Assembly (NCBI GenBank): GCA_000002445.1
Contig: CP000069.1
Coordinates: forward strand, 1,504,001-1,568,000
Length of the DNA stretch: 64,000 bases
Direction: 5' to 3'
Source of the DNA: Trypanosoma brucei
Taxonomy: Eukaryota
Shown: positions 10,266 through 47,135 of the stretch, piece after piece
Layout: every line of letters starts with the position of its first letter
Position numbering within the stretch: position 1 is the first letter of the stretch
Translations under genes and position numbers: made by a program
The notes under the pieces: model-generated
What the model was told of the DNA's origin: nothing
The model's input: the letters and a program-made list of their open reading frames with translations, nothing else
The model's database searches: none

Positions 10266-10549
10266 AATTCGCTTATGGCATCACCGCGCAAAGGGTAAAA
10301 CCATCATTTCCTCGTTCCATTTTGCTGTGACTATTCATCATCTTTATCTCCATATTCTTTTTTATTATGATTCCTTAGTCATTTTGTGTCTGACATTGTG
10401 TATATTTCATCAGTTTATCTTGTTATATCATAATATTCCTTATCACTTCCTCTATTCTTTTTTCACTACCTTATCTACTACCATTTCACCCTCGCAACTT
10501 TTTGAACTACCTCTATTTTGTATTTGAACGTATTCTTAACAGCTACTGC

Positions 10550-10660
10550 TCTTATTATAATATTATTATATACACATTCACTACACTCTCATTTTATTAT
10601 CCCTATTATTTTAACTATTAATATTATTATGACCGTAACTAATATCCATAAAATAATTGA
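10550..10660 (-). repeat. 70-bp repeat (about 1 copy)
   Basis: cttattataatattattatatacacattcactacactc plus TTATTA tract. Confidence 0.75.
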
Positions 10661-10789
10661 AGTGACAAAATTTGAATGGCACTCATTTTCCTTACCATAT
10701 CATCATATTAATACAAACTTATAGCCTTCTATCACACAGATTTTACTAAGTTTTCATAATATCGAGAAATTTTTTATGTTTGACAAAAC

Positions 10790-10805
10790 GTGTTAAAGTA
10801 TATCA
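10790..10805 (-). promoter_or_regulatory. VSG 3'UTR 16-mer (1 mismatch)
   Basis: gtgttaaagtatatca on +. Confidence 0.65.
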
Positions 10806-10919
10806 AATTATAAAAAATTTAAACAAACTCTTTTCCCGAAAATGAAAATTAATAACTTTCATGAAGTCCTTAAAAAACTGCTAATTTCACAAAAGCAGCA
10901 TCCATCAGAGTAAATTTCT

Positions 10920-12435
10920 TATTTAGGAGAAAACTACCACTTCTTCACTTTTCTGTACCCTTATCATCTTCGCTATCTTTTCCCTTTCTCCATGCACAAA
11001 CAGGTTTTTCTTTTCTTTTATTGACTTCTTCACATTTGTCTTTTGAGCCATATTCGGAGCATTTAAGCTTTTATTTGTCTTTCCAGCTTCTTGGTCCGGT
11101 TTAGAAACTGGACTTTTTGGATCTTCTTCGCATTTAGTCGTTGCTTCATTATACTTGCAACCCACATCGGGTTTGCACTCCGATTTTTCCAGTTTTGTGC
11201 AATCTTTTTTGTTCCATGTTTTTGTGCCTGCTCGCTGGTTCCAGATTTTTGCTGGCTCGTCGTGGTGTCATCTACTGATAGGATGGAGTACAGTTGGTGT
11301 GCTTGCTTTTGTAATGTTTTTGGCCGCTGTCTGTAGGCTTTGTCGTCGTTACACGCCTTTTGCCATGTCGCCGCCGCCTCTGTAAGCTGGTCGTACCAAG
11401 CTATCGCTGCTGCGCCTGTTGCCGGCTTTAGAGCGCTACCATAGTCGACGCAACGTGCTGCATTCGCTGCTCCGCAGTTGCCGCCATTGTGCTGGCCTAG
11501 GTAGGCTGTTGCTTGCGTCGCCTCGTCCAGTGCCGGGTTCCCTTTTAATTTGCTCAGGAATTTGCCTTGTATACCGCGCAACGTGTCGGCTGAAAGCTTT
11601 GGCTTGGGCCTGTGTTTGCATGCTGTTTTTATTTCTGACCACGTTGCTGTTTTGTAGCTTGAACCGAGTGCTGCCCAGTCGCCGCCTGCAGCTGTTGGAG
11701 TATCAAAACCGCAGGGTTTTGCCAACGATTGTGTGTACTGTCCACAGCGCACAAGCAAAAAAGGTCTCCCAATATGGATTTTCCGGCAGAAGGCGTTTTG
11801 CAGTCGGTGTTTCGCGTCCCTAATAGACCCATAGTTTTGCCGTCACTGCCGTCACTTTTTCCTGCCCCTTTGCCATACAATGCCGCTTTGATTGCTGCTG
11901 TTATTGCATTGTTTTCTTTGACAAGCTTCGGTCGGACATTTGAGTTGTATTCGCGCAGCGCCGCTTCCGCTTCGGCTGCTAGCAGCTGCAGGTTTGCGAT
12001 ATACCTAGATGCTCCTGCCTGGTGTTTTTTCAGGTTGCCCGTGTTTAGATGCGGTTCCGCTGTGACCCTCTTCAGCAAATTGGCTTTGGCTGTCGCCCAC
12101 TTCATCCAGTTACCTATGCAAGCGCTTTCGTCGCTGCTGCCGCTGCACCCTGTTGTCTTTGCTGTTGGCTCCTCGGCGGGGGTCTCCTTTGGAAATTTGG
12201 AGTACCGGCTGTCTGGTGCGGCGGACACATTAAGCTGTATGATATCATTAACTTCTACGTCGGTCACGGCCGCTGCGCAGATTTCAACTGTTGGGTCTGC
12301 GTCCTCCAGTAGAACAGCTTCGCACAGGATGCTGAATTCCGCTATGTTTACGCCGTCGCCGGCTGTCGCCTCTCCTGGCCACCGCCACAGGTTTAGCGCG
12401 AACGTCAGGACGACTTCAATCGCGACACAGTTCAT
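10920..12435 (-). pseudogene. VSG: VSG pseudogene (B-type), at least 2 frameshifts
   Basis: ORF 11629..12435(-) starts with MNCVAIEVVLTFALNLWRWPGEATAG... (signal peptide). ORF 11063..11758(-) has GGNCGAANAARCVDYG. ORF 10923..11165(-) has the C-terminal domain cysteines GCKYNEATTKCEEDPK. The three pieces are in different frames. Confidence 0.8.
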
Positions 12436-13874
12436 ACTCTACTCTGCTTGAGTATTGTTTCTAGGTCGGTTTCGTGTTGCTAGTCTTCAAACATTGTGAT
12501 AAAGTGTGCTGGTGGTTACAACAATGTAGCGGCTTAGTTGTCTTTTGCAGCAGGGGCGGTCGCTTACCTTATGGTTGCCTGCCTGCTCCTCTTGACCGGT
12601 TTGTCTCTCAAATGTATCTTTCACACATTATTTGCCGCGACTCCGACGGGTTTGTTCGATATTCTTTAGTTTTGACCTAGTGGCGATCGGTCAGTTTGCT
12701 ACGGTTTCTTGTTTTCTGTTCTTGACTCATTCCACCGCAGTATTTTTCCTTTTTCAGTTTTCCTTAGTGGTGCCGTTGGCGCTCCTTTTCCTGTCTGTAT
12801 AGGGACTCTAACGACAGGTTGTGCATGCCTTTGATAACGGTACCTTCTTATTTTTCTTTACTTCTGCATTTCCTTTTCCTCTACAAGTTTTTTGTCACTT
12901 GCGTCGCCTCATTTTGATCGGTTTTTCAGTGACTCCACTAAATAGGCTTTTTCCTCCGCCTGCTGTATATAGGTCTGTGCTTTGCATGACACTTTGTGCG
13001 TTTTCAAAAAAGCACCCACCGAGTTAGGAACGATTCTTAGGTTTAGCCGCAAAATCTTTTTGTAAACTCTTGTTATTGCTCATCCACTGTCGTTGTTTCG
13101 TCTTACTGTTTTTGATTTAGGGTCATTTGCTTGTTCGCCTATGTTATTAGGTTAGAAAAGCTGCATACGTCTTTAAATTTGTTTTAACTTTCTTCTGCTT
13201 CTCAGAAAAAGGTGGCTGCGTTTGGTATGATGAGTAATGTGCCTAATAAAATCTTTCGTGCTACTACTCTCATAGCTGTTTTGCGGTCGGTAAATAAAGA
13301 AAATTCGTAAAATTCGAAGTATAAAAACATTTACACCACTTATGAGAAAAATAAATATTAGTGCGGTTTGCAGGTATAACTTAACGCTGACACGTAAAAA
13401 ACGTGCTTTGGTTGAGTAATTGTAGCTTTAAATTCCAATCCATGCCGCTATATATCTATATCAACATCTAAAACATCTATCATTTATGACCGCTATGTGC
13501 TTTTAATGTGCCTCAAATCCTGCCGCCATGATACATCTTCAACGTAGATATAACACTGACACTTCGTCTGTATACATGGTTTTGAGCATTTCGTATTCTT
13601 ATCTTGTATGAGTACCGGTCTCTCCTGTTTCTTTATCAGCAATAGTAGTCTTAAATGCACTCTACTTTCTTGAAATATCTTAACACATACCATCAATTTA
13701 GTGTCACTGTCTATTATAATGAATTATCCGTGTCTTAAATAGGTTTAACTTCTTACCATTGAATCATTATGGGAGAGAACGGTATCATTTTAAACTTTCT
13801 GTACTTCATAAAGCACTTCTGCGGCCCTCCACCTGCCGTTTCTCATCATTAAGTTGTTCCTTCTGATTTTAACA

Positions 13875-16013
13875 CTAGATAGCGGAATATCCTGTTGGTA
13901 TTGTTGGCCCTATCGCTGCATGTTGCGGGTTGCACCATCGGCACTGTGGAGGCACACTCGGGTTGATCTTTCGCAACATCCATCCATAGTGTCTTGAAGA
14001 CACAACCCGAAAGCGTGCCCGTGCCGTTTCTTCTTCCCTCGTCAGTTCTTCTTTATGTTTTGTTGGAAAGTGGTTGCCCGTGATACCAAACCTATGAGTG
14101 TTCTCATGGACTTCTTCCGACCTAAGCACTCGCTTCGCATAAGCAATGATGTCGGGGATCCATGTGTCTCGCAACTGTGGTAAATCTGCGGCCTTTTTGG
14201 CCATTTCATCGCAAACCTCATTCCGTTTCATGCCACAATGGCCAAACACAAATTGCAGTCGGATACACACCTTTCTTCTCTGAACTTGAAGCAGAAGCCT
14301 CCATAGTCGTCTTAGAATTGGGTCCGTTACGGCTAGGGGGCCTGTCTGCAGTGCTGTTAACATTGACAGCGAGTCAGAGAAGATGGACAACCTGCTCGGT
14401 GTGCTTCTGTATGCCGGAAGCCATTTCAGCAGCCTTTGCAGTCCTATCTCTAATGCTACGCATTCCGCTCTGTAACTGCATGAGAGTTCCCCTGCTCCAG
14501 TTTTGGGTGCACAAATCAGCGTGTTGCTTCTGTAGAGCAGGGCAGCTGCTCCGGACTTCTCACCGAGGGACATGGGTCCATCAGTCCACAATTCGTAGTG
14601 CTCTCGCCGCGGTGGCTCCTTCCCCCTCCGTGCAAAATGCCGTTCAATCCACTTTTCGGAAGCCTCCCTTTTGACATCGTCAGGGTCATCAGCGCACACA
14701 GGCTTTATCTGCGTGTGAAATATCGGTCGGCAGCTGTGGCGGAGCGTCGATGTCTCTAGTGGGTGCTCGCGTGGCTCAATGTGGAGGTGGGGATAGGACC
14801 GCATGATGCGGGAATGTAGGACTCTGACTGGATGTTTGCTGTGGTATACTTCTTCAGCACTGCGCCGTAAACATCCGCCTCGTGACTCACACATCAGCAT
14901 GAATTTCATGCTGCGCACAAGAGTGGTCGTCTTGAGTGGCAGGAGGTTTGCTTCCAGCAGAGAGTTCTCTTTGAGCTTCCCATGTTGTATGCCGGCTATG
15001 ATGCGACTGGCTTTGTGTTGTGCTGCTGCAAGGAGGTCGCGACTTCGTTCCGAAGCGTCCCAGTACCATACCTCAATGCCATACATGGTGTGTGCCTGTA
15101 CGAGTGCTAGATAAAAAGCTCTCAGTACTTGTCTTCTTGGCTCCCATGTAGAAGCTGAGATGGCTGCTATCTGCAGTAGTCTAAAATCCATCTTGCGTCT
15201 CGTTTCTGCAGCATGTGTTGCCATCCCCTGCAGACACTGGAATGTTACTCCTAGAAGCTTCGGTGTCCTGCCAGCTCCTATTCTTTTGCCGTCCAGTTGT
15301 AATGTAAGGGGGTGGCGCTCTATACACCCGAAGAGTGTGCACATTGTTTTCGCTACATTGACAGACATGAAGTACTCTTTTGACCACTGTAACACCACGG
15401 TTAGGCCGCATTGTAGTGTGTGGTTGATGGCATCCCTCTCTGTGTGCCTCGCAAGTAGCGTCAGGTTGTCTGCAAAGAATCCGTGCTGCAGTAACGGCAC
15501 TTCTGCAAGGCATTGGCTCAACGAGTTCATGACAATAATGAACATGATTGGACCAAGGACAGTTCCTTGTGGCACTCCTCGCTCAAATGTTCTGCTTCTG
15601 GAGAGCTTCTCCTTGAATCTCACTCTGCCAGTTCGGTTACTCAGAAATGATACGCACCACTTCACAATGTGGGGTGATACCTTCATTCTGTGCATTTCCC
15701 TCGCAATTTTGTCGTGGTCTACTGTATCAAATGCCTTCTCGTAGTCGACGAATACAGCACCCGTACGATATTGGTGCGTGGGGCGGCAGAGGGCAGCGCG
15801 GACGTGCAGGAGTTGTTCGAGCGTTGAGCATCCGGGGCGAAAGCCTGATTGCTGCGGCGTCAGCTGGGACTCAACAGTGTCTCTAAGCCTCGCGGCAATT
15901 ATGCGTTCCATGACTTTGCAGAGACAGCTCGTGAGCGTCACAGGCCTGTAAGAATCGAGGTCCTCCGCCTTTTTCCGGCCTTCAGGATGGGGATGATAAC
16001 ACCAGTCTTCCAT
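13875..16013 (-). CDS. ingi reverse transcriptase - RNase H ORF segment (712 aa, uninterrupted up to the truncation point)
   Basis: RT motifs are present (e.g. FVDYEKAFDTVDHDKIAREM..., FADNLTLLARH as the YXDD-like region). RNase H follows (ELWTDGPMSLGEKSGAAALLYRSNTL...). The ORF ends a few codons past the point where ingi homology stops. Confidence 0.85.
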   Translation of the reverse strand: MEDWCYHPHPEGRKKAEDLDSYRPVTLTSCLCKVMERIIAARLRDTVESQLTPQQSGFRPGCSTLEQLLHVRAALCRPTHQYRTGAVFVDYEKAFDTVDHDKIAREMHRMKVSPHIVKWCVSFLSNRTGRVRFKEKLSRSRTFERGVPQGTVLGPIMFIIVMNSLSQCLAEVPLLQHGFFADNLTLLARHTERDAINHTLQCGLTVVLQWSKEYFMSVNVAKTMCTLFGCIERHPLTLQLDGKRIGAGRTPKLLGVTFQCLQGMATHAAETRRKMDFRLLQIAAISASTWEPRRQVLRAFYLALVQAHTMYGIEVWYWDASERSRDLLAAAQHKASRIIAGIQHGKLKENSLLEANLLPLKTTTLVRSMKFMLMCESRGGCLRRSAEEVYHSKHPVRVLHSRIMRSYPHLHIEPREHPLETSTLRHSCRPIFHTQIKPVCADDPDDVKREASEKWIERHFARRGKEPPRREHYELWTDGPMSLGEKSGAAALLYRSNTLICAPKTGAGELSCSYRAECVALEIGLQRLLKWLPAYRSTPSRLSIFSDSLSMLTALQTGPLAVTDPILRRLWRLLLQVQRRKVCIRLQFVFGHCGMKRNEVCDEMAKKAADLPQLRDTWIPDIIAYAKRVLRSEEVHENTHRFGITGNHFPTKHKEELTREEETARARFRVVSSRHYGWMLRKINPSVPPQCRWCNPQHAAIGPTIPTGYSAI

Positions 16014-17661
16014 GCAGGCGGCACGACTCCCGTTCGTAGGCTCTCATTGAATAGCCTCACAACAACATTCAGCGCTGTTCTGCCGAGATGTTGCAGTGCC
16101 TCGTTGTATAAGCAATCAGGTCCGGCTGCGGATCCACTAGGTAGCAGTTTGATCGATCTCCGTAGTTCAGCCATCGTGATGGGACTGAACTCACTCGCTA
16201 TCGTCTTTATTGGTGCCGGTGGGTGTGAGTCGGGGTGCCTTCTTGCGCGGGAAGAGTACAGTTTACTGAACCTCTCAGCTTGACGGTAGTCCGTGATGGC
16301 CGCGTTATCAACAAGTACAGCCGGTGTGGTTAGTGGTCGTGGCGCATATACCTTCTTGACAATGTGCCAACTGCAGCGGTCTGACACCGCAAGTCTGGAG
16401 CATAGCGTGCTCCATCTCTTCTTTGTGGTACGGTCCAGGATCTGCTTACGCGTGGCTACCAACTTTTCCCTTCGGTGGGAGGGTCCGCATCCAGCGATCT
16501 CTTCATCGAGTTTCGCGAGCTCAGGTGTCCAATGTGGTGGCGTTGCTCTGCAGCCACGGGGGACGGAGACCTTCGTCGCAATGCGGATGGCGGAGCTCAA
16601 TTTCTGTTCCAGGGTGTTGACATTCTTCTCTCTACCAATTTTCCTGCAGAGCTCGTCAACCTTGAGACGGAAATTCCTCCAGTCAGCTTTTAGCCATGCG
16701 TACATGGGCTTTCGAAGCCGCGGGCAGCTCAGTGCATCTGTGTCGTCTCCAAAGATAACGTCGAAAAATATGTGATGGTGATCGCTATCGGGAGAATACA
16801 GCGATGTCCACGTGTACACTGTGCAATTCCTTGACAGTGTCACATCAGGGGTGGACTCCCCGTGGTGGCGCGCGTACCTGGTGCACTCACCAGTGTTGCA
16901 GACCAGAAACTGGTTGTCAATGCACCACTGTGTGAGGGTTTCACCCTTGGTATTTGGTGGGCTCGCGCGATCCCATGCCAACGCGTGTGCGTTAGCGTCT
17001 GCACCGATGAGCTGGGCACCGTCAGTCGTCAGAAGCGTATCTAGGTCAGTTGCCGTGAAGGTGTGTTTTGGTGGGATGTATGCCGACGTGACAGTCAGCG
17101 CCGTTCCACGTGCAAGGTGAATTGTTGCATGCACTTGTTCAATGCGACCAACAACGGCCATACCGGTCTCGACTGGTATGTCCTCTCACTAGTATTGATA
17201 CACCACCTCCTTTGCAGTTACGAGCTATTCCGTGATGTTGGTAGCCAGCAACGCTAAAGCAAGCCGCCTCTCCAGGCGTCATCCTTGTCTCGCTCAACAG
17301 ACAAAAGGCGATCCGCTCATCAACAAGGGTTTTGTGGAGTGCTAATCTCTTTCCTTGAGATAGTCCGGCGCAGTTCCACTGCATCCCGTGAAACGACAGG
17401 CAGGGATTCTCTTCCACATCACCGGACAGCAGCATCTTAGTGCGGATGATATACTGCTGATGGCACGCTGGCACGTGCTCAGGGACCGACAAATGAAAAA
17501 CGGTGTCCCAGCAAGACGCTGCTGATCCCTGTGCTGTATGATGCCGTAGCCGGAGCACAGCAGTGTTCCCTATGAAAGGAACGCTGCTGGCTCTTGGCTT
17601 CCCCCGATGATACGGGGTACTGGACCCTGGCACCACGTTGAGGTGGCCGGCATCGCCAGGG
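13892..17661 (-). mobile_element. ingi: ingi non-LTR retrotransposon, copy 1; 5' end intact, 3'-truncated (about 3.77 kb of about 5.25 kb)
   Basis: The 5' end (reverse complement at 17600-17661) reads GATGCCGGCCACCTCAACGTGGTGCCAGGGTCCAGTACCCCGTATCATCGGGGGAAGCCAAGAGCCAGCAG. Collinear and about 97-98% identical to the copy at 41740-46988. Homology stops abruptly at about 13892, after ...QHAAIGPTI in the protein. The zinc-finger region and 3' RIME half are absent. Confidence 0.9.
15938..17161 (-). CDS. ingi ORF segment (N-terminal region, 407 aa; follows the APE-like endonuclease segment present in the overlapping ORF 17139..17750)
   Basis: 407-aa ORF that is near-identical to the ORF at 42239..43462. 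The overlapping ORF 17139..17750(-) carries FHGMQWNCAGLSQGKRLALHKTLVDERIAFCLLSETRM, which is endonuclease-like. Confidence 0.8.
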   Translation of the reverse strand: MAVVGRIEQVHATIHLARGTALTVTSAYIPPKHTFTATDLDTLLTTDGAQLIGADANAHALAWDRASPPNTKGETLTQWCIDNQFLVCNTGECTRYARHHGESTPDVTLSRNCTVYTWTSLYSPDSDHHHIFFDVIFGDDTDALSCPRLRKPMYAWLKADWRNFRLKVDELCRKIGREKNVNTLEQKLSSAIRIATKVSVPRGCRATPPHWTPELAKLDEEIAGCGPSHRREKLVATRKQILDRTTKKRWSTLCSRLAVSDRCSWHIVKKVYAPRPLTTPAVLVDNAAITDYRQAERFSKLYSSRARRHPDSHPPAPIKTIASEFSPITMAELRRSIKLLPSGSAAGPDCLYNEALQHLGRTALNVVVRLFNESLRTGVVPPAWKTGVIIPILKAGKRRRTSILTGL

Positions 17662-18159
17662 TACTCACTTGATCTCAACCCTCCGCATTTAAGTCGGCCA
17701 CCATATTTCAAACTATATGTTACACCATTTCTTACGCAGCATCTATTCACTTATATTTGACATAGGAAGCACAAACCACCCCGTATTATTTCTTTCTGTG
17801 CCGCTTTGAGCTTTTGCGTGTCCATTTGTTTCTTTCTGTATCTTCTTCCCTATTTTTGTCAACTGCATCACTCGCTTTGAGTAACACAGAGACTCTATTT
17901 GACATGTAACAACTAATTCTGTCTCTAACCACTATATTTCTTCACCTTCTCAATGTGCATCATGGTACTCATCACCATGTTTATGTACGAAAATGTTCGT
18001 ATTCCCTATTCTTTTTCTTTTGTATCTCTTATTTTCCTTCAATAACATCAAACGTGCTCACAGTCTGTCTTATTACTTCTTCTACTCACTCATTTACTCA
18101 AATTATGCCATTGCAATTATTTTAAACTCCTTATTTTGGGGGTTATTTCAGCTGGCAGC

Positions 18160-18290
18160 CCTCTTATTTTAATATTCGTATACACACTCACAACACTATC
18201 CTAGTATTATCATTATTGGCATTTCTATATTATTATTAACACTACTTCTACTATAGCCCTAACTGATAGCGACAGAATAACGAAATAATC
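18160..18290 (-). repeat. 70-bp repeat (about 1-1.5 copies)
   Basis: cctcttattttaatattcgtatacacactcacaacactatcc ... tattattattaacactac. Confidence 0.8.
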
Positions 18291-18589
18291 AAAATTATTG
18301 TACTAATCATTTTTGACGCCCTTTCATCCTACTACGTTATGTCCACATGCCACTATTATACACATTTTAGTATAAGTTTAACTATTTTTCTCACTTTTAA
18401 AAGGTTTTTAAAAACTGTTAAAATATAGAAATTTTTGTCAATTTCTATCAAATTCTTTCAAAATATCAGCGTGTCATTGTATTTTATAAAATTCATGACG
18501 TTCGATAAAATTGAGCATATATCCTTATAGTTCTACAAAAACCCACAAAAAAGCAGTAATCAGGGCAATTTTTTTTTTTATCTAGAAGA

Positions 18590-19914: not shown

Positions 19915-20469
19915 GTTAGTAAATTTATGGTTTTGTTTATGTTGAAATGCGTAACGTTTTGTGCAATTATAGTGGCTTGTGAGTAAGTTTGAATGTCACA
20001 GAAACCTTATCGGTTTGTGGGGTACTTTAAGACTTTAAGGCTAAAACATTAATTTTAATTAGAAATTACCGTGGAAGGTGAAGTTTCGTGATCAAACATC
20101 TTTGAAGTACCTTCGGAATCACATTTTATAAGTCTTAAACAAATACCCTTCTTTAAAAGCGTAAATACAAATTTTGTCATACGTGAAATTAAATTTTTTT
20201 CAACCTCTCGTATAAGCTCAAATTTTTCTTAACTCTATCGTACTAAATTTCCTCCTTTTAAAACACGCGTAAAAACTAAGATTTTTTACAATTAACTTCG
20301 TTTTCTCCTCTCATGCAATAGTGTACCATTGAAAAAATAAATGGCGCCTTTCAAATTTCATCACTATGCTGAATAGAAAAGAGTCTCTCCTCATAATCTA
20401 ATCCAATCATTCCTCACTTCAAAACAAATCTTTGTCAAACAGCTTCTTTTTGAGTTGCACTACAAATAA

Positions 20470-21060
20470 GAAATGGCTTGTAAATACTCTTATCTGACTG
20501 CCATTCCTCACTTCCCTTTAGTAACTCTCCAAAAGCATATTCAAATTTTCTTAAACTCCCATACTCTGGCTATTAAACCGCCAACACTAAGATACGGTTT
20601 TCCACTAGGAGGTGATTTTAGTAAATGGGGTAATTTTTTATCCTCTTCTTTTCTGTAGCCCACATTGAAAAACCAGTAACATCTCTGCATATGCTCCTTG
20701 TGATCTGAGTTCATAATCAGATTCAACTGAGGAGCATAACACTCTGATGTTGTCATGAACATAATAGGGGAAATATGCTTCTCTTTTACTATATCTTCTT
20801 CACCAAATCTATCTTCATTATCAGCGCTATTTTGTACAAAATATTCCACAGCATTTTTATACTTATTTCCATCACTAACAATAACAGCAGATCCATTTAC
20901 AGTTATTACAATATCCTCATCACCTGCATTATGCATTTCCAAAAATTCCATAACTCATCTAGGCCTCTTAACATGACTATACAAACCTTCCATAGCAATT
21001 GTAATAATTTTAACATGGCTTATTTAGTACTTAATATTAGCCTGCACCATCCTTTAGTTG
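20470..21060 (-). repeat. Conserved VSG-upstream module, copy 1, carrying small ORF 20541..20951(-) (136 aa, acidic, ends ...GGLIARVWEFKKI)
   Basis: DNA and protein similarity to 24240-25040 and 47590-48130. Shared protein motifs are VITVNGS/VIV.DG.KY, MNSDH.EHM.RC and IARVWEF(K/R)KF. Confidence 0.6.
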
Positions 21061-22029
21061 CATGAGTTTGAACCACAAAAACAAACACTCTGGAATTCTT
21101 AGGCTTTTCATCTGTAATATTTACTTCTTTATAATGTTTAATATATGTTGAGCTTAAACACGCAAAATGTAATAGTAGTGATAATAATAAAATCGAAAGT
21201 TACTACATTTTATTCCCTAACCTATATTTAAAATTTTGAAAGAGATATAATAAAAAATTTAAAAAAGAGTAAGTTTCATCACTAAGCTTTTTGGTTAATG
21301 AAAACGTGTTTACGTGTATGAGTAAGTAATGCCTTGATATTGTGATTATATAGCTTCTGAAATGTGCCTATTTAGTGCATTAATTTAATCTTTTGGCGTG
21401 CATTAAAGATTCCTGTTTTTAGTAGTTAGCCGCGGCAACATACAGTGCAGTTCTTCCATGCACAGTCCTTCTCTATGAATTTATCTGGTAATTACAAGTA
21501 GCAGGCTGAACTGATAGGGACAGAAATAATAATAATTTTACAACCCTTCTGCGCAACTCCTCTCAACCATCTAATTTAGGCATTATCCTCTAACCAACAT
21601 GGATTTATGAGCCACCGATACTCGATTCTACAATTTTCTTCGTTGTGGCACATATTCATTTTTGTGCCAAATGTGCAGCACAATCACATCTTCTGCCGTT
21701 TACTTTGTGCCAAACTCGTGAGCATTTCGTTGCAAAACTCTCTCTTTTATTTACTTTTTTACGTTCTGTTGCTACTCCTGCGAATTACGTTGATAATTCA
21801 TTTTGCCTGCTCACGGAACTCTGATTATCGCCTACTTTTGGCTTCATCACGTTCCTTTGTATAATCATGAACATAAACATATTTCTGTTTGAAACTGTAT
21901 ATTCCACAACCCTTTCTTCCTTTTTTATTTTTCTCTTACAAACTTTCTCACTTAATAAGTTACTTCCATTGCACCTTTGCAATTATTTAGGTGCTTCCAT
22001 TCTTCCTCTTCATATATTATTCACCAGCA

Positions 22030-24239: not shown

Positions 24240-25040
24240 CCCACTATTTATACCAAGTGAGATTTAATAGGATCTTTCTAGTCTTTTCCTTCCAGGATAA
24301 CGCACGTCCTTGAAAGTGAAGGAACGCAGCTTTTCTGAAGGAAGTTTCGTAATGGACTGAGAAAAACTGATCGTCGTAATCTAATCCAATCAACTCTCTT
24401 GGTAAAACTAATCTACCGCTTACTTTTGCTTCCCGTTTCACACTCCACAATAGCAACGGAATATAAATACTCTGTTCTGACCACCATTTCTTCCCGTCTT
24501 CTAATAACTCTCCAAATACATATTCAAATTTTCTTAATTCCCACACTCTTGCTATCAAACCATCACCACTAAGATAAGTTTTTCCACTAGGAGGTGATTT
24601 TACTAAATGAGGAAAGTTTTTATCCTCTTCTTTTCTGTGCCCAACATTAAAAACATAATATCATCTCTCCATATGCTTCTTGTGATGTGAGTTCATAATC
24701 AGATTCAACTAAAGTGCATAACATTGTGGAGTTGACACGAATAGAATTAAATAAATTTTTTGTCCCTTTACAATATTCTCTTCATTTTCTGCATAATTTT
24801 GTATAAAATATTCCACGGTATTTTAATATTTTTTCCATCAGAAATAATAACATCAGATCCAAAAAAAGCTATTATAATATCCTCATCACTTGCATTTTGT
24901 ATTTCTAAAATTCCATAACCCATCTAGGACTTTTAACATGACTATACAAACCTCCTATTGTAATTGTTATAATTTAAACATTGCTTAGTTTGTTACCTAA
25001 TAATATTCTACACCATCCTTTAGTTGCATGAGTTTGAACT
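24240..25040 (-). repeat. Conserved VSG-upstream module, copy 2 (ORF 24244..24558(-) begins MIARVWELRKFEYVFGELLEDGKKWW...)
   Basis: Nucleotide similarity to 20470-21060 (e.g. ...taactctccaaa.acatattcaaattttcttaa..tcccacactct.gctat.aaacc... and ...ccataac.catctagg.c.tttaacatgactatacaaacc...). The ORF is frameshifted relative to copy 1. Confidence 0.6.
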
Positions 25041-26039
25041 ACAACTACAAACATTCTTGCCTCCTTAGGATTATTATATGTTGTGTTTTTTGTTGTTTAT
25101 ATTATTACCCTGAAGAGATACAGCTCTTCAAAACACTAAATGTAATATAAAATGTAGCAGTAAAGTTGTTAATTTACCGATTTTTTCCACTTAACTGTAG
25201 AAATTTGAACGAGAGAAAAGCAAGAATTTTAGAAACCTTAAGAAAATAATTTAGTTACATCACTACCTTAATTATAAAAAAGGGTTTACGCATATAGTAA
25301 GTAATCACTTGATATTTTTGTAATACAGCTGCCAAAGGGTGCACACTTAATGTCTGCAGCTTATCTTTTAGCATGCATTTACCCTTTTTGTTCTAGAAAT
25401 TAGATTATAATACACCTGTGACTGTACACCGCGTGGACATTGTCTGTAAGTTTATCCACATTTCTTCGCCATCCATTTCTATATAAATGTTTCAACTGAA
25501 TATACCGATAGGTTCAGATATACTAAGAGTTTTGCTAGTTTTCTTTGCCAACTAACTAAGCCCGAAGGTTTCGTCATGAGAAGAACATCAGCGTTTCTTC
25601 ATGAACTTTTGCTACCATTTTCGTTACTAATATCTTTGATATAGCATCTACACATTTTTGTATCAAATACGGAGCGTCAAATACTTCAGATGTATCACTT
25701 TCTTCAGTACGTTTCTGCAGCTATTGCCTTTGTTTCTTTCTGCTCTCCATTCCGTCCCTTTCGTTCTCTACCATTTTTTCATGGCAATGTAGCGACTCCT
25801 TTAGTCATGTATATTAGACTCTGTCTCTTCTTAATAATCTTCTCATCATTTTCTTCTGTGAAATGATTACCGTATTCACGTCTCGTCATGAGACTATACA
25901 TATTTTATCTCTCTTTCTTTGATTTTCTGCATCCCTTCTATAATTATCATCTTACAAACTCTTCAACTCCCTCTTTACTACGGTTTCTTTTCCACTATTT
26001 TAAGGTCTCCTACTACTCTTGTGCATTTAGTCTTCAATA

Positions 26040-41279: not shown

Positions 41280-41745
41280 AAAATCTTTGTTAATGACAAC
41301 AAAATTTCTTCCTGTGGTTTTTTTTCATCCTTTCTTCCTGTTGCTTCGTTCGTTACTTCTGCTCCTGCTTGTTGGTCCACCCAACTCATTGTGCACTTTT
41401 TCTTGGTTTTCTTTGCTTCTGAGTTCCATTCGCAGGGTTCTTGGTAATATCGTTATTTATCTTTGGCGTCGCAGTCTTTTTCCGTTTGTTCTCGCTTTTC
41501 TTTGCTAGAGGTAGGTACTTGGTCGCCAAGTGACTGCATTTTCTGCACTGGTAATTCTTCCTCCAGGCTAAAAATCAATACCTCCCTTTTTTCTGCTCCA
41601 ATTTATTGCCTTGTTTGTTGTCCTATGACCGCTGCTTTTAATTTGGTTGCCTCTGCCTGCTCCAGTGCTTTTCCTCTTCCCATTGACTTTTTTACGCAGT
41701 CTACGTCTTCGAATGCCGTCTGTTCTTTCTATCTGATACCCTGGA
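41280..41745 (-). pseudogene. VSG: VSG 3' fragment (C-terminal about 150 aa plus GPI signal), 5' part displaced by ingi insertion
   Basis: Reverse-complement translation gives ...SLEEELPVQKMQSLGDQVPTSSKEKREQTEKDCDAKDK... then ...CEWNSEAKKTKKKC... and a tail TTGRNFVVINKDFLWLAFLLL. A 3'UTR follows with 16-mer-like ttattaaaatatatca at 41168-41183. The coding sequence abuts the ingi 5' end at about 41745. Confidence 0.7.
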
Positions 41746-42238
41746 GATGCCGGCCACCTCAATGTGGTGCCAGGGTCCAGTACCCCGTATCATCGGGGGA
41801 AGCCAAGAGCCAGCAGCGTTCCTTTCATAGGGAACACTGCTGTGCTCCGGCTACGGCATCATACAGCACAGGGATCAGCAGCGTCTTGCTGGGACATCGT
41901 TTTTCATTTGTCGGTCCCTGAGCACGTGCCAGCGTGCCATCAGCAGTATATCATCCGCACTAAGATGCTGCTGTCCGGTGATGTGGAAGAGAATCCCTGC
42001 CTGTCGTTTCACGGGATGCAGTGGAACTGCGCCGGGCTATCTCAAGGAAAGAGATTAGCACTCCACAAAACCCTTGTTGATGAGCGGATCGCCTTTTGTC
42101 TGTTGAGCGAGACAAGGATGACGCCTGGAGAGGCGGCTTGCTTTAGCGTTGCTGGCTACCAACATCACGGAATAGCTCGTAACTGCAAAGGATGAGGTGT
42201 ATCAATACTAGTGAGAGGACATACCAGTCGAGACCGGT

Positions 42239-43462
42239 ATGGCCGTTGTTGGTCGCATTGAAAAAGTGCATGCAACAATTCACCTTGCACGTGGAACGGC
42301 GCTGACTGTCACGTCGGCATACATCCCACCAAAACACACCTTCACGGCAACTGACCTAGATACGCTTCTGACGACTGACGGTGCCCAGCTCATCGGTGCA
42401 GACGCTAACGCACACGCGTTGGCATGGGATCGCGCGAGCCCACCAAATACCAAGGGTGAAACCCTCACACAGTGGTGCATTGACAACCAGTTTCTGGTCT
42501 GCAACACTGGTGAGTGCACCAGGTACGAGCGCCACCACGGGGAGTCCACCCCTGATGTGACACTGTCAAGGAATTGCACAGTGTACACGTGGACATCGCT
42601 GTATTCTCCCGATAGCGATCACCATCACATATTTTTCGACGTTATCTTTGGAGACGACACAGATGCACTGAGCTGCCCGCGGCTTCGAAAGCCCATGTAC
42701 GCATGGCTAAAAGCTGACTGGAGGAATTTCCGTCTCAAGGTTGACGACCTCTGCAGGAAAATTGGTAGAGAGAAGAATGTCAACACCCTGGAACAGATAT
42801 TGAGCTCCGACATCTGCATTGCGACGAAGGTCTCCGTCCCCCGTGGCTGCAGAGCAACGCCACCACATTGGACACCTGAGCTCGCGAAACTCGATGAAGA
42901 GATCGCTGGATGCGGACCCTCCCACCGAAGGGAAAAGTTGGTAGCCACGCGTAAGCAGATCCTGGACCGTACCACAAAGAAGAGATGGAGCACGCTATGC
43001 TCCAGACTTGCGGTGTCAGACCGCTGCAGTTGGCACATTGTCAAGAAGGTATATGCGCCACGACCACTAACCACACCGGCTGTACTTGTTGATAACGCGG
43101 CCATCACGGACTACCGTCAAGCTGAGAGGTTCAGTAAACTGTACTCTTCCCGCGCAAGAAGGCACCCCGACTCACACCCACCGGCACCAATAAAGACGAT
43201 AGCGAGTGAGTTCAGTCCCATCACGATGGCTGAACTACGGAGATCGATCAAACTGCTACCGAGTGGATCCGCAGCCGGACCTGATTGCTTATACAACGAG
43301 GCACTGCAACATCTCGGCAGAACAGCGCTGAATGTTGTTGTGAGGCTATTCAATGAGAGCCTACGAACGGGAGTCGTGCCGCCTGCATGGAAGACTGGTG
43401 TTATCATCCCCATCCTGAAGGCCGGAAAAAGGCGGAGGACCTCGATTCTTACAGGCCTGTGA
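42239..43462 (+). CDS. ingi ORF segment (407 aa; about 98% identical to 15938..17161(-))
   Basis: MAVVGRIEKVHATIHLARGTALTVTSAYIPPKHTF... is near-identical to copy 1. Confidence 0.8.
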   Translation: MAVVGRIEKVHATIHLARGTALTVTSAYIPPKHTFTATDLDTLLTTDGAQLIGADANAHALAWDRASPPNTKGETLTQWCIDNQFLVCNTGECTRYERHHGESTPDVTLSRNCTVYTWTSLYSPDSDHHHIFFDVIFGDDTDALSCPRLRKPMYAWLKADWRNFRLKVDDLCRKIGREKNVNTLEQILSSDICIATKVSVPRGCRATPPHWTPELAKLDEEIAGCGPSHRREKLVATRKQILDRTTKKRWSTLCSRLAVSDRCSWHIVKKVYAPRPLTTPAVLVDNAAITDYRQAERFSKLYSSRARRHPDSHPPAPIKTIASEFSPITMAELRRSIKLLPSGSAAGPDCLYNEALQHLGRTALNVVVRLFNESLRTGVVPPAWKTGVIIPILKAGKRRRTSILTGL

Positions 43463-44496
43463 CGCTCACGAGCTGTCTCTGCAAAGTCATGGAGCGCATA
43501 TTTGCCACGAGGCTTAGAGACACTGTTGAGTCCCAGCTGACGCCGCAGCAATCAGGCTTTCGCCCCGGATGCTCAACGCTCGAACAACTCCTGCACGTCC
43601 GCGCTGCCCTCTGCCGCCCCACGCACCAATATCGTACGGGTGCTGTATTCGTCGACTACGAGAAGGCATTTGATACAGTAGACCACGACAAAATTGCGAG
43701 GGAAATGCACAGAATGAAGGTATCACCCCACATTGTGAAGTGGTGCGTATCATTTCTGAGTAACCGAACTGGCAGAGTGAGATTCAAGGAGAAGCTTTCC
43801 AGAAGCAGAACATTTGAGCGAGGAGTGCCACAGGGAACTGTCCTTGGCCCAATCATGTTCATTATTGTCATGAACTCGTTGAACCAGCGCCTTGCAGAAG
43901 TGCCGTTACTGCAGCACGGATTCTTTGCAGACAACCTGACGCTACTTGCGAGGCACACAGAGAGGGATGCCATCAACCACACACTACAATGCGGCCTAAC
44001 CGTGGTGTTACAGTGGCCAAAAGAGTACTTCATGTCTGTCAACGTAGCGAAAACGAAGTGCACACTCTTCGGGTTTATAGAGCGCCACCCCCTTACATTA
44101 CAACTGGACGGCAAAAGAATAGGAGCTGGCAGGACACCGAAGCTTCTAGGAGTAACATTCCAGTGTCTGCAGGGGATGGCAACACATGCTGCAGAAACGA
44201 GACGCAAGATGGATTTTAGACTACTGCAGATAGCAGCCATCTCAGCTTCTACATGGGAGCCAAGAAGACAAGTACTGAGAGCTTTTTATCTAGCACTCGT
44301 ACAGGCACACACCATGTATGGCATTGAGGTATGGTACTGGGACGCTTCGGAACGAAGTCGCGACCTCCTTGCAGCAGCACAACACAAAGCCAGTCGCATC
44401 ATAGCTGGCATACCGCATGGGACGCGCAAAGAGGACTCTCTGCTGGAAGCAAACCTCCTGCCACTCAAGACGACCGCTCTTGTGCGCAGCACGTAA
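43387..44496 (+). CDS. ingi reverse transcriptase segment (369 aa, terminated by stop, unlike copy 1)
   Basis: MEDWCYHPHPEGRKKAEDLDSYRPVTLTSCLCKVMERIFATRLRDT... with RT motifs. Confidence 0.85.
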   Translation: MEDWCYHPHPEGRKKAEDLDSYRPVTLTSCLCKVMERIFATRLRDTVESQLTPQQSGFRPGCSTLEQLLHVRAALCRPTHQYRTGAVFVDYEKAFDTVDHDKIAREMHRMKVSPHIVKWCVSFLSNRTGRVRFKEKLSRSRTFERGVPQGTVLGPIMFIIVMNSLNQRLAEVPLLQHGFFADNLTLLARHTERDAINHTLQCGLTVVLQWPKEYFMSVNVAKTKCTLFGFIERHPLTLQLDGKRIGAGRTPKLLGVTFQCLQGMATHAAETRRKMDFRLLQIAAISASTWEPRRQVLRAFYLALVQAHTMYGIEVWYWDASERSRDLLAAAQHKASRIIAGIPHGTRKEDSLLEANLLPLKTTALVRST

Positions 44497-44499
44497 TTC

Positions 44500-44904
44500 A
44501 TGCTGATGTGTGAGTCACGAGGCGGATGTTTGCGCCACAGTGCTGAGAAAGTATACCACAGCAAACACCCAGTCAGAGTCTTACATTCCCGCATCATGCG
44601 GTCCTATCCCCACCTCCACATTGAGCCACGCGAGCACCCACTAGAGACATCGACGCTCCGCCACAGTTGCCGACCGCTATTTCACACGCAGATAAAGCCC
44701 GTATGCGCTGATGACCCTGACGATGTCAAAAGGGAGGCTTCCGAAAAATGGATTGCACGGCATTTTGCACGGAGGGGGAAGGAGCCACCGCGGCGAGAGC
44801 ACTACGAATTGTGGACTGATGGATCCGTGTCCCTCGGTGAGAAGTCCGGAGCAGCTGCCCTACTCTATAGAAACAACACGCTGATTTGTGCACCCAAGAC
44901 CTGA
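44500..44904 (+). CDS. ingi RNase H-like segment
   Basis: ...HYELWTDGSVSLGEKSGAAALLYRNNTLICAPKT. Confidence 0.7.
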   Translation: MLMCESRGGCLRHSAEKVYHSKHPVRVLHSRIMRSYPHLHIEPREHPLETSTLRHSCRPLFHTQIKPVCADDPDDVKREASEKWIARHFARRGKEPPRREHYELWTDGSVSLGEKSGAAALLYRNNTLICAPKT

Positions 44905-45009
44905 GCAGAGGAACTCTCATGCAGTTACAGAGCGGAATGCGTAGCATTAGAGATAGGACTGCAACGGCTGCTAAAATGGCTTCCGGTATACAGAAGCACA
45001 CCGAGCAGG

Positions 45010-46182
45010 TTGTCCATCTTCTCTGACTCGCTGTCAATGTTAACAGCACTGCAGACAGGCCCCCTAGCCGTAACGGACCCAATTCTAAGACGACTATGGA
45101 GGCTTCTGCTTCAAGTTCAGAGAAGGAAGATACGTATCCGACTGCAATTTGTGTTTGCCCATTGTGGCGTGAAACGGAATGAGGTTTGCGATGAAATGGC
45201 CAAAAAGGCCGCTGACTTACCACAGTTGCGAGACACATGGATCCCCGACATCATTGCTTATGCGAAGCGAGTGCTTAGATCGGAAGAAGTCCATGAGAAC
45301 ACTCATAGGTTTGGTATCACGGGCAACCACTTTCCAACAAAACATAAAGAAGAACTGACGAGGGAAGAAGAAACGGCACGGGCACGCTTTCGGGTTGGGT
45401 CTTCAAGACACTATGGATGGATGTTGCGAAAGATCAACCCGAGTGTGCCTCCACAGTGCCGATGGTGCAACCCGCAACATGCAGCGATAGGACCAACAAT
45501 ACAAACAGCCCCACCTGTTGCGACACGCACTCTTCAGAGAACCTCCGAATCAAACAAATGTACGGAATGTGATGCCACATACCAATGCCGCTCGAGTGCT
45601 GTAACGCACATGGTAAACAAACACGGCTTTGTGCGAGCTGATGCCCTCCGGAGGATCAAATACGGCGATGCAACACCCGCAGTGGATATCCCCCCGGAGC
45701 CCCCTCCAGTGGTGGCGATCGTTCCTCTACCATCGAGCACACGAGTCCCGATGAGACCGCAGGTGCTTCATTGTACCCTCTGTGCCTCCAAATTCGCAGT
45801 GCCAGGCCGACTATTACACCACCTTAGAACAATACATGGCATAGGCAGCGGTAGTTGCCGCGTGAAAAGGGGGCGAGAGAACGAAGACTCAGTGCAAGGA
45901 GATGGTAGCGTCCCAGCAGCGCCAGCCTCTCAGGATACACGGAAGCTGCCGTTTCAATGTGACTTGTGCGAGGCGAGCTTCGGTACACACTCTTCCCTGT
46001 CACTACACAAGAAATTCAAACATAAGAGCATAGTGACGGAGGACGGTACCGTGGTGTTGGTGCAATTCCCTCGTAAGCGTGCCCGTGAGGGAAACGTTGA
46101 CGTCCCGGGGAAGGGCGAGGTGCAGTGTGGTGTGTGCCAAAAAAGTGCTCAGTTGCGGGGCCTCCCTCATCCGACACTGTAA
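45010..46182 (+). CDS. ingi C-terminal segment with C2H2 zinc fingers
   Basis: CTECDATYQCRSSAVTHMVNKHGF, HCTLCASKFAVPGRLLHHLRTIHG and FQCDLCEASFGTHSSLSLHKKFKHKS. Confidence 0.8.
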   Translation: MSIFSDSLSMLTALQTGPLAVTDPILRRLWRLLLQVQRRKIRIRLQFVFAHCGVKRNEVCDEMAKKAADLPQLRDTWIPDIIAYAKRVLRSEEVHENTHRFGITGNHFPTKHKEELTREEETARARFRVGSSRHYGWMLRKINPSVPPQCRWCNPQHAAIGPTIQTAPPVATRTLQRTSESNKCTECDATYQCRSSAVTHMVNKHGFVRADALRRIKYGDATPAVDIPPEPPPVVAIVPLPSSTRVPMRPQVLHCTLCASKFAVPGRLLHHLRTIHGIGSGSCRVKRGRENEDSVQGDGSVPAAPASQDTRKLPFQCDLCEASFGTHSSLSLHKKFKHKSIVTEDGTVVLVQFPRKRAREGNVDVPGKGEVQCGVCQKSAQLRGLPHPTL

Positions 46183-47089
46183 GGCTTTCCACAAAGGTGA
46201 GGGAGTCGAGCTTAAATGCAGCAAAATCACAAAATTGGGTGCCACTGATTCCCCGCATACAAACACATCCATGTTGGTGTGCCAGACAGGCGGAAGGCAG
46301 TGTGCTAGCAAAACTGGCCTCACCCTACATCAAAAGAAGATGCACGGTATGAGAGCAGAGCGCACTGTTACGAGCCAACGCGGCGACTGCAAAGAAACGT
46401 CGCTGCACCTGATGAGCTGTCCAGGTTTGAAGGAGTTACGTGTCAGGTTTGCGGTAGAGGGTGTGTGTGTACAAGATGTATGTTTCTCTAAAAGGCTGGC
46501 GCAATTTCTCATTGCGGTTGAACGGAGCCGGCCGCAGGTGAAGTCCTCACCTAAGGTAAAAGTCATACAACCCACTCTCCCTTCTGCAACTTCCCCCTTA
46601 TTTCTGAGAGTGGAGCTAGCAGGAAAAGCACCGGACGCATGAATAGTCCAGACACCCTCAGAGACAGAGGGGGTATGCAATCAACAAGCAACAGAAACAG
46701 AAAGAGGGAGAGAGAATAATAAACGAATAACAAAAATCAAAACAAAAGGATTGCTAATTGACATCTTCGGGAGAGTCTGGGGAGGGGTTCTTTTCGCCCC
46801 ATCTGCTGTAATGTGTTCAACTGCGGAGCTACAACAAAAATTATAGAGGGTGTGTTAGGATGAATAAAAAAGGGAGACTCTGCCACAGTCGCCAGACCGA
46901 TAGCATCTCAGGGCTCTACGGTGATGGCTGATGGCCGCGCCAGTGGGGGGAAACTCTCACGAAGACACGAAGAAAATTCAAAAAAAAACGAACACACTCT
47001 TCTTCGCACCCTTGTTTGGTGGTTAAGTAGAGTGCTTGTCGAACATTGTACAAGGGTAGATCCCAGGGGGCGGAGAGTATCTAGCTTAC

Positions 47090-47135
47090 ACTAAGAATGA
47101 ATCTGCCTCAATGTGGCGCCAGGGTCACGTACCAG
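47090..47135 (+). mobile_element. Short sequence resembling the ingi/RIME/DIRE 5' signature (possible degenerate element remnant)
   Basis: gcctcaatgtggcgccagggtcacgtacc compared with the ingi 5' gccggccacctcaatgtggtgccagggtccagtacc. It lies about 100 bp after the ingi poly(A). Confidence 0.35.

What the first reader, a model, noticed from the sequence alone, without database searches (positions are those of the whole stretch)
13850..13950. ingi copy 1 is truncated at its 3' end (not the usual 5' truncation); RT-RNase H ORF stays open to the breakpoint
Non-LTR elements normally suffer 5' truncation from incomplete reverse transcription. Here the 5' end and endonuclease are present. Homology to copy 2 stops abruptly at about 13892, just after codons for ...QHAAIGPTI and before the zinc-finger domain. 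It then continues into ordinary VSG-upstream sequence with no poly(A). This points to a post-insertion deletion or a recombination junction. The 712-aa RT-RNase H reading frame in this copy is uninterrupted, whereas the full-length copy 2 has stops there, so the truncated copy preserves the cleaner RT sequence.
Basis: seen in the sequence. Interest (0 to 1): 0.5.

Follow-up and report, generated by a model that had tools for sequence, protein, structure and literature searches.

The report
Ingi retroelement cut by microhomology junction
A trypanosome jumping gene (ingi) sitting upstream of a silent surface-antigen pseudogene has lost its last 1.5 kb. The scar lies on a 15-base near-match between the element and the neighbouring DNA, which is the known signature of error-prone break repair in this parasite, so this is a tidy but ordinary genomic scar.

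Summary
Ingi copy 1 (window 17661..13892, minus strand) matches the full-length copy 2 (41739..46988) at 98.1% with no indels, and the match stops dead at 13892. It lacks the last ~1.48 kb: the zinc-finger C-terminus, the 3' RIME half and the poly(A). That part is nowhere else in the window. The 712-aa RT/RNase H frame is open to the junction, while copy 2 has two stops in it. Both copies still share three frameshifts and a TAG, so both are pseudogenes.

New here is an ingi-free paralogous VSG cassette in T. b. equiperdum (L001, 85-91% identical). Its homology overlaps the ingi homology by 15 nt (13906..13892): ingi CAACAATACAAACAG, copy 1 CAACAATACCAACAG, flank CAACGATACCAACAG. Only 9 of 8.6 million ingi x flank 15-mer pairs match this well.

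Copy 1's 5' flank fits the Tbingi insertion signature (7/10, in register). It therefore inserted normally and lost its 3' end afterwards, at a microhomology (MMEJ-type) junction. I favour a one-sided gene conversion primed from the 70-bp repeat; a simple deletion is the close rival.

This is a known kind of event, so interest is low.

The parts
18161..18298 (-). 70-bp repeat that opens this VSG cassette (about 1-2 units, ...GTTGTGAGTGTGTATACGAATATTAAAATAAGAG)
   Evidence: It matches the 70-bp-type repeats upstream of at least 10 other VSGs in the window. Sequence read.
17662..18160 (-). 5' flank of ingi copy 1 (499 nt). It includes the Tbingi (ingi4) insertion signature at 17695..17662 and the predicted 12-nt TSD ATCAAGTGAGTA at 17673..17662.
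   Evidence: 7 of 10 signature positions match in register; background P(>=7) = 0.006. The signature comes from PMC3820030. There is no homology to L001 or to the rest of the window. No second TSD copy exists in the window.
13892..17661 (-). ingi copy 1: the 5' 3.77 kb of a 5.25-kb Tbingi. It has the 79-nt 5' signature and the AP-endonuclease, RT and RNase H regions. It is a pseudogene, with 3 frameshifts and a TAG shared with copy 2.
13875..16013 (-). 712-aa open frame (RVT_1 + RNase_H) that reads through the junction for 5 codons (..GPTI|PTGYSAI*)
15938..17161 (-). 407-aa frame with the endonuclease/RT N-terminal part (Exo_endo_phos_2). It is out of frame with the 712-aa ORF.
13892..13906 (-). 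The junction: a 15-nt imperfect microhomology, CAACAATACCAACAG, shared by ingi (13/15 against the flank paralogue) and the VSG-upstream flank. A at 13902 is ingi-type and C at 13897 is flank-type.
   Evidence: Three-way alignment. Exhaustive 15-mer statistics. All other ingi have A (codon CAA, Gln) where copy 1 has C.
12436..13891 (-). Non-coding VSG-upstream region of the cassette, homologous to the ingi-free T. b. equiperdum cassette L001 8170..9629
11063..12435 (-). VSG pseudogene (b-type), split by a frameshift into 268-aa and 231-aa frames
   Evidence: Pfam VSG_B at 4e-31 and 1e-13. Closest proteins are EATRO1125 VSGs and T. b. equiperdum P0005.
10543..10700 (-). 70-bp repeat of the next cassette. 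This is the downstream end of the homology with L001.
41739..46988 (+). ingi copy 2: full length (5250 nt) with an A9 tail, used as the reference. It is also a pseudogene, and it has no TSD.

Best explanation
Copy 1 is the remnant of an ingi that inserted normally, by endonuclease-dependent target-primed reverse transcription, about 0.5 kb downstream of a 70-bp repeat. Its 3' 1.48 kb, poly(A) and 3' TSD were separated from it later by a DNA-level rearrangement. The joint formed by annealing of a 15-nt imperfect microhomology: ingi CAACAATACAAACAG and VSG-upstream flank CAAC(G/A)ATACCAACAG. This is microhomology-mediated end joining (MMEJ), the only end-joining pathway documented in T. brucei.

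The version I commit to is a one-sided gene conversion.
1. A break occurred at or near the 70-bp repeat of an ordinary cassette (70-bp repeat, ~180 bp, CAAC site, 1.45 kb, VSG).
2. The repeat-side end invaded the 70-bp repeat of another cassette that carried an ingi just downstream.
3. Synthesis copied the 0.5-kb flank and 3.77 kb of ingi.
4. The new strand was then captured on the other broken end at the microhomology about 180 bp from the break.

Shown: the truncation, the overlap, its rarity, the normal 5' insertion site, and the unrelated 5' flank. Inferred: that L001 represents the parental flank, the position of the break, and conversion rather than deletion.

The element has no function here. 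It is a scar that leaves 3.8 kb of dead retroelement inside the co-transposed region of a VSG pseudogene.
For: (1) The ingi homology ends at 13892 and the flank homology with ingi-free L001 begins at 13906, a 15-nt overlap. Similarity is random on the non-matching sides (2-5 matches per 15).

(2) Only 9 of 8,586,721 ingi x flank 15-mer pairs reach 13/15 and none reach 14. The chance that a random joint sits on such a pair is about 1e-6.

(3) Copy 1 is a hybrid inside the overlap. It has the ingi-type A at 13902 and the flank-type C at 13897. Three other ingi DNAs and all 9 ingi protein sequences have A (Gln) at the latter site.

(4) The 5' flank fits the Tbingi target signature 7/10 in register. 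A control intact ingi with a clear 12-nt TSD scores 8/10.

(5) The ingi 5' flank (17662-18160) has no homology to L001 upstream of its CAAC site. L001 has 70-bp repeats only ~180 bp upstream of that site. That fits the break-proximal preference of MMEJ.

(6) In T. brucei, MMEJ uses 5-20 bp with mismatches tolerated. One-sided HR+MMEJ gene conversion has been observed experimentally, and putative natural MMEJ deletions were found in VSG expression sites (PMC3045614).

(7) An ingi between the 70-bp repeats and the VSG is a known arrangement (BES2; PMC2567434).
Against: The parental flank is inferred from a paralogue that is only 85-91% identical and comes from another subspecies. No orthologous empty site and no donor locus could be retrieved.

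Conversion and simple deletion cannot be told apart with the data in hand. The base just after the overlap (G at 13891) differs from both ingi and L001, which both have C, so a later mutation or a lineage difference must be assumed.

Mis-assembly cannot be tested without reads.
Confidence: 0.45

Rival explanations
1. Simple intrachromosomal MMEJ deletion. The ingi was inserted upstream in the same array. A break in or beyond its 3' part was resected, and the two sides annealed at the same 15-nt microhomology. The deletion removed the ingi 3' end, its poly(A)/TSD and everything up to the CAAC site.
For: It explains the same junction evidence as the best explanation and the same normal 5' insertion site. 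It needs only one locus. MMEJ deletions are the commonest end-joining outcome in T. brucei.
Against: If the ancestral cassette looked like L001, the deleted stretch must have included the cassette's own 70-bp repeat and ~180 bp, plus whatever lay between it and the ingi. That probably included a whole VSG unit, so several kb. Experimental MMEJ deletions were 81-948 bp and favoured break-proximal microhomology. The 5' flank of the ingi is unrelated to L001's upstream region.
Confidence: 0.33
2. There is no microhomology. The 15-16 nt in L001 are a relic of the same truncated ingi. The L001 cassette would descend from a window-like cassette and later lose nearly all of the ingi, so the original joint was an illegitimate blunt junction.
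For: L001 shares copy 1's unusual C at the position of 13897. Its next base (C) also equals ingi. Homology between L001 and the window ends exactly there.
Against: It needs a second rearrangement that ended within 16 nt of the first joint, roughly 16 in 4000. L001's sequence upstream of the site is not homologous to the window's ingi 5' flank, so a simple internal deletion is excluded. That upstream sequence instead weakly resembles an ordinary post-70-bp-repeat region (64% over 146 nt, E = 2.5e-7). T. brucei has no reported blunt NHEJ.
Confidence: 0.08
3. A 3'-truncated insertion from the start. Reverse transcription was primed inside the ingi RNA by a broken or nicked DNA end that paired with the 15-nt stretch. 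This would be internal priming, or endonuclease-independent retrotransposition patching a break, as described for human L1 in NHEJ-deficient cells (from my own knowledge, not checked here).
For: It would give microhomology at the 3' joint, no poly(A), no TSD and a complete 5' end.
Against: The 5' flank fits the endonuclease target signature in register (P ~0.006-0.02). With endonuclease-dependent priming the 3' joint should abut ATCAAGTGAGTA, and it does not. The 5' and 3' flanks are not neighbours in the ingi-free paralogue.
Confidence: 0.03
4. Assembly chimera: two loci were wrongly joined within or beside a repeated ingi.
For: Ingi is a multi-copy 5-kb repeat in a repetitive VSG array. No reads are available, and no identical proteins from this genome are in the collections.
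Against: Mis-joins normally occur within long identical repeat sequence. Here the switch lies in a 15-nt imperfect match, and copy 1 has its own substitutions up to the joint. The joint has the hybrid structure expected of a biological heteroduplex.
Confidence: 0.04

Closest known systems
Tbingi (ingi4 subclade non-LTR retrotransposon of T. brucei; Kimmel 1987, Bringaud et al.)
   Same: It has the 79-nt 5' signature. It has the AP-endonuclease, RT and RNase H regions, 94-97% identical at protein level to T. b. equiperdum and gambiense ingi. The upstream target signature is present.
   Different: It lacks the C2H2 C-terminal region, the 3' RIME half, the poly(A) and the TSD. The reading frame is broken in three places.
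MMEJ-based deletions and one-sided MMEJ gene conversion in T. brucei (Glover, Jun & Horn 2011, PMC3045614)
   Same: The joint lies on a 5-20 nt microhomology with tolerated mismatches. The junction sequence is a hybrid, there are no filler bases, and the setting is subtelomeric VSG DNA.
   Different: This is a natural, undated event. One partner is a retroelement. The parental flank is known only through a paralogue. The tract copied or deleted is several kb, larger than the experimental events.
ingi element 3' of the 70-bp repeats in bloodstream expression site BES2 (Hertz-Fowler 2008, PMC2567434)
   Same: A retroelement lies between the 70-bp repeat and the VSG, inside the co-transposed region.
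   Different: Here it is in a silent array cassette with a VSG pseudogene, and the element is 3'-truncated.
RIME / 5'-truncated LINE copies
   Same: They are defective derivatives of an autonomous non-LTR element.
   Different: RIME keeps both ends and loses the middle. Dead-on-arrival LINE copies lose the 5' end and keep the poly(A). Copy 1 keeps the 5' end and loses the 3' end.

Membership tests
Tbingi non-LTR retrotransposon | Conserved 79-nt 5' signature starting CCCTGGCGATGCCGGCCACC | tested here: met
   It is present at 17661 downward. It is identical in type to copy 2 and to the intact T. b. equiperdum ingi.
Tbingi non-LTR retrotransposon | AP-endonuclease, reverse transcriptase and RNase H domains | tested here: met
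   Pfam hits: Exo_endo_phos_2 2.9e-13, RVT_1 7e-42, RNase_H 4.6e-08. Identity to the intact ingi ORF P0035 is 95-97%.
Tbingi non-LTR retrotransposon | C-terminal C2H2 zinc-finger region, 3' RIME half and poly(A) tail | tested here: not met
   All are absent from copy 1 and from the rest of the window apart from copy 2. They are present in copy 2.
Tbingi non-LTR retrotransposon | 12-bp target-site duplication | tested here: not met
   The predicted TSD ATCAAGTGAGTA occurs only at the 5' side, allowing up to 2 mismatches.
Tbingi non-LTR retrotransposon | Upstream target signature AxxxxxxxTxxxGTxGGxTxxx^xTxTxxTxxxxx | tested here: met
   7/10 in register; background P(>=7) = 0.006. The control element L002 scores 8/10.
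Tbingi non-LTR retrotransposon | Single uninterrupted ORF of about 1656 aa (potentially active copy) | tested here: not met
   There are three frame changes and a TAG relative to P0035, all shared with copy 2.
MMEJ junction (T. brucei) | 5-20 nt microhomology, mismatches tolerated, shared by both parental sequences exactly at the joint | tested here: met
   There is a 15-nt overlap, 13/15 between ingi and the flank paralogue, with P ~1e-6 for a random joint. This is conditional on L001 standing in for the parental flank.
MMEJ junction (T. brucei) | No filler nucleotides; the junction switches template inside the homology patch | tested here: met
   Copy 1 reads ingi-type at 13902 and flank-type at 13897, with nothing inserted.
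MMEJ junction (T. brucei) | Both true parental sequences identified | tested here: inconclusive
   The ingi parent is well defined. The flank parent is known only from an 85-91% paralogue. No orthologue was retrievable.
MMEJ junction (T. brucei) | Genetic requirements (RAD51 independence of deletions, initiation by a double-strand break) | not testable with these tools
   This needs experiments.
One-sided HR + MMEJ gene conversion | Homologous recombination at the other end of the tract (here the 70-bp repeat) and a surviving donor locus | not testable with these tools
   No trypanosome nucleotide collection can be searched by DNA. The 70-bp repeat is present at 18161-18298.
5'-truncated dead-on-arrival LINE copy | Missing 5' end with the 3' end and poly(A) retained | tested here: not met
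   The 5' end is complete and the 3' end is missing.
Endonuclease-independent / internally primed insertion | Atypical target site without the endonuclease signature; the two flanks adjacent in the empty site | tested here: not met
   The signature is present 7/10. The flanks are not adjacent in the ingi-free paralogue.

The most novel reading that the evidence does not exclude
The truncated copy was never full length. A broken DNA end near the 70-bp repeat would have primed reverse transcription inside an ingi RNA through the 15-nt match. The break would then have been patched by endonuclease-independent retrotransposition, in an organism that lacks classical NHEJ. That would be the first footprint of retroelement-mediated break repair in a trypanosome VSG archive.
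Probability: 0.03. Interest if true: 0.7.

Novelty: new member of a known kind. Interest (0 to 1): 0.25.

Why it matters
It is a clean natural example of how silent VSG arrays are remodelled. A retroelement and a VSG-upstream region were joined on a 15-nt imperfect microhomology, the footprint of the MMEJ pathway defined experimentally in T. brucei.

If the conversion version is right, two things follow. Retroelement fragments can spread at the DNA level as passengers of 70-bp-repeat-initiated recombination. They can also lengthen the co-transposed region of a VSG cassette.

It changes no current view. Both ingi copies are dead, and the neighbouring VSG is a pseudogene.

Tried and rejected
1. 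I looked for the missing 3' part elsewhere in the window, using BLASTN with word size 7 and TBLASTN with the intact ingi protein. Nothing was found.

2. I looked for a degenerate ingi relic in the flank that could have given ordinary homologous recombination. There is no similarity on either side of the 15 nt.

3. I considered a 30-kb segmental duplication, suggested by similar GC profiles and two 525-aa ORFs. It was rejected: there is no DNA match, and the proteins are unrelated.

4. I considered an inversion between the two head-to-head ingi copies. All VSGs stay on the minus strand and no flanks are swapped.

5. I searched for TSDs for both copies and found none.

6. I made exact-protein look-ups to find the source genome or the orthologous locus. 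The queries were the 712-aa, 490-aa, 474-aa, 407-aa and 44-aa junction ORFs and EATRO1125 VSG P0001. None is on record.

7. A third protein search with the VSG C-terminal half aimed to find more paralogous cassettes. It returned only P0005 and P0006 again.

8. An Rfam scan of the window at gathering thresholds gave no hits.
Full report
**Context.** The window is a Trypanosoma brucei-type silent VSG array.
- The larger minus-strand ORFs tested carry the Pfam VSG_B domain.
- A short 70-bp-type repeat recurs on the same strand upstream of more than ten cassettes.
- The closest VSG proteins are T. brucei EATRO1125 and T. b. equiperdum entries.
- Two ingi elements lie head to head 24 kb apart: copy 1 on the minus strand and copy 2 on the plus strand.

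- Self-BLAST gives one block, 13892..17663 (-) = 45508..41737 (+), at 98.07% identity, with 73 substitutions and no indels.
- Both copies start with the canonical ingi 5' end, CCCTGG at 17661 and at 41739.
- Copy 2 is 5250 nt long with an A9 tail ending at 46988. It aligns over its whole length (96.5%) with an intact T. b. equiperdum ingi that encodes a 1656-aa ORF (L002/P0035).
- Copy 1 therefore keeps about 3.77 kb and lacks the last ~1.48 kb, including the poly(A).
- The 712-aa ORF 13875..16013 (-) carries RVT_1 and RNase_H. It ends ...QHAAIGPTI-PTGYSAI*.
- Nine other ingi sequences continue GPTIQTAP... into the C2H2 zinc-finger region. The break is at about residue 1251 of 1656.
- The missing part is not elsewhere in the window, even in degenerate form.
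- In that frame copy 2 has stops at 44494 and 44902, plus one at 42193 in the endonuclease frame.

**Neither copy is functional.** Against the intact ORF, both copies change frame at the same three places (copy 1: window ~17450, ~17184, ~15971). Both also share a TAG near the start. The 712-aa ORF begins at an internal Met right after the third frameshift.

**What lies beyond the break.** A protein search with the adjacent VSG pseudogene (268-aa frame) found one genome-located relative, in T. b. equiperdum (P0005).
- Its locus L001 aligns with window 13906..10549 at 85.1% over 3.4 kb, and at 91% in the 400 nt next to the junction.
- L001 contains no ingi.
- In L001 the 70-bp repeats lie only ~180 nt upstream of the position that corresponds to the junction.

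**The junction.** Homology with L001 starts at 13906 and homology with ingi ends at 13892, so 15 nt are shared by both.
- ingi: CAACAATACAAACAG
- copy 1: CAACAATACCAACAG
- L001: CAACGATACCAACAG

On either side of this stretch the non-homologous partner matches at random level. In an exhaustive comparison of ingi with the L001 flank, only 9 of 8,586,721 15-mer pairs reach 13/15 and none reach 14. The chance that an arbitrary joint falls on such a pair is about 1e-6.

Inside the overlap copy 1 is a hybrid. The A at 13902 is ingi-type. The C at 13897 is flank-type. At that position copy 2, two further ingi DNAs and all nine ingi protein sequences have A (codon CAA, Gln), whereas copy 1 encodes Pro. 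The template switch therefore lies between 13902 and 13897.

**Was it a normal insertion first?** Tbingi elements are preceded by a conserved endonuclease target signature and a 12-nt target-site duplication (TSD) (PMC3820030).
- Copy 1's 5' flank matches 7 of the 10 conserved positions in register. The background frequency of >=7 in the window is 0.006.
- A control intact ingi with an obvious TSD scores 8/10.
- The predicted TSD, ATCAAGTGAGTA, has no second copy in the window.

This argues that a complete element was inserted by the usual mechanism and lost its 3' end afterwards. It argues against internal priming or endonuclease-independent insertion.

**Mechanism.** T. brucei repairs breaks by homologous recombination or by MMEJ. 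According to Glover et al. 2011 (PMC3045614):
- MMEJ uses 5-20 nt of microhomology with mismatches tolerated.
- It prefers break-proximal patches.
- It can yield hybrid junctions.
- It can close one side of a gene conversion whose other side is homologous.

The joint here fits that description.

Two versions remain. I favour one-sided conversion (about 0.45).
1. A break occurred at the 70-bp repeat of an L001-like cassette.
2. The broken end invaded the 70-bp repeat of a cassette that carried an ingi 0.5 kb downstream.
3. That flank and 3.77 kb of ingi were copied.
4. The new strand was captured at the microhomology ~180 nt from the break.

This explains why the ingi 5' flank is unrelated to L001 and why the microhomology used lies so near a 70-bp repeat. 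An ingi just 3' of 70-bp repeats is a known arrangement (BES2; PMC2567434).

The close rival (about 0.33) is a plain MMEJ deletion within the array. It is simpler, but it requires a deletion of several kb that also removed the cassette's own 70-bp repeat.

**Minor rivals.**
- The 15 nt in L001 could be an ingi relic (about 0.08). This needs a second event ending within 16 nt of the first, and L001's upstream sequence is not the window's ingi flank.
- The copy could be a 3'-truncated de novo insertion (about 0.03).
- The join could be an assembly error (about 0.04).

**Limits.**
- The parental flank is inferred from a paralogue in another subspecies.
- No orthologous locus could be fetched, because the source genome's proteins are not in the collections.
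- There is no DNA-searchable trypanosome collection among the tools.
- The G at 13891 differs from both candidate parents.

**Verdict.** It is an instance of known processes, namely ingi decay and an MMEJ-type joint in a VSG array. It is of modest interest as a clean natural footprint.

Noticed in passing
window 41727-41738 and 46989-47000: Full-length ingi copy 2 has no target-site duplication (5' TTCTATCTGATA, 3' CGAACACACTCT). Its 5' flank fits the Tbingi target signature poorly (3/10 in register). It may itself be a product of recombination between elements.
   Followed up: partly
window 47105-47160, 47227-47281, A9 at 47761: About 120 nt downstream of copy 2's poly(A) lie two tandem, degenerate copies of the 79-nt ingi-clade 5' signature, followed ~500 nt later by an A9 run. 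This looks like a SIDER2-type short degenerate retroposon in tandem with the ingi. The Rfam scan reported nothing at gathering thresholds.
   Followed up: partly
window 13892-17663 versus 41737-45508: Divergence between the two ingi copies is very uneven. It is about 0.8% in the first 2 kb and 3.5-6% between element positions 2000 and 3500. This suggests a mosaic history, such as gene conversion among ingi copies.
   Followed up: no
window 17570-17572 / 41828-41830 and the frame changes near 17450, 17184, 15971 (copy 2: about 41950, 42216, 43429): Both copies share one TAG and three frameshifts relative to the intact 1656-aa ingi ORF, yet they have independent 5' flanks. They seem to descend from the same already-defective lineage, presumably mobilised in trans.
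   Followed up: partly
window 41975-41995 and 17405-17425: The N-terminal 2A-like motif of ingi (DVEENPGP in intact T. b. equiperdum copies) reads DVEENPCL in both copies here. The NPGP core is destroyed.
   Followed up: no
window 20388-21404, 24371-25379, 47776-48134; L001 4895-5624, 12077-13166, 17744-18878: An AT-rich element of about 1 kb (GC ~0.33) recurs between VSG cassettes in the window, at 72-80% identity. It also recurs in the T. b. equiperdum array. Its identity was not determined.
   Followed up: no
L002 2993-8242 and 9902-10971: The intact T. b. equiperdum ingi has a near-perfect 12-nt TSD (TTCTCCTCACA(C) / TTCTCCTTCACA). About 1.7 kb downstream lies a second ingi 3' portion in inverted (tail-to-tail) orientation, running to the end of the fetched locus.
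   Followed up: no
window 10549-13906 versus L001 8155-11523: The unit shared by the two paralogous cassettes runs from the VSG-upstream region through the VSG to the next 70-bp repeat downstream. It does not stop at the VSG 3' end, which suggests the ancestral duplication unit was repeat-to-repeat.
   Followed up: no
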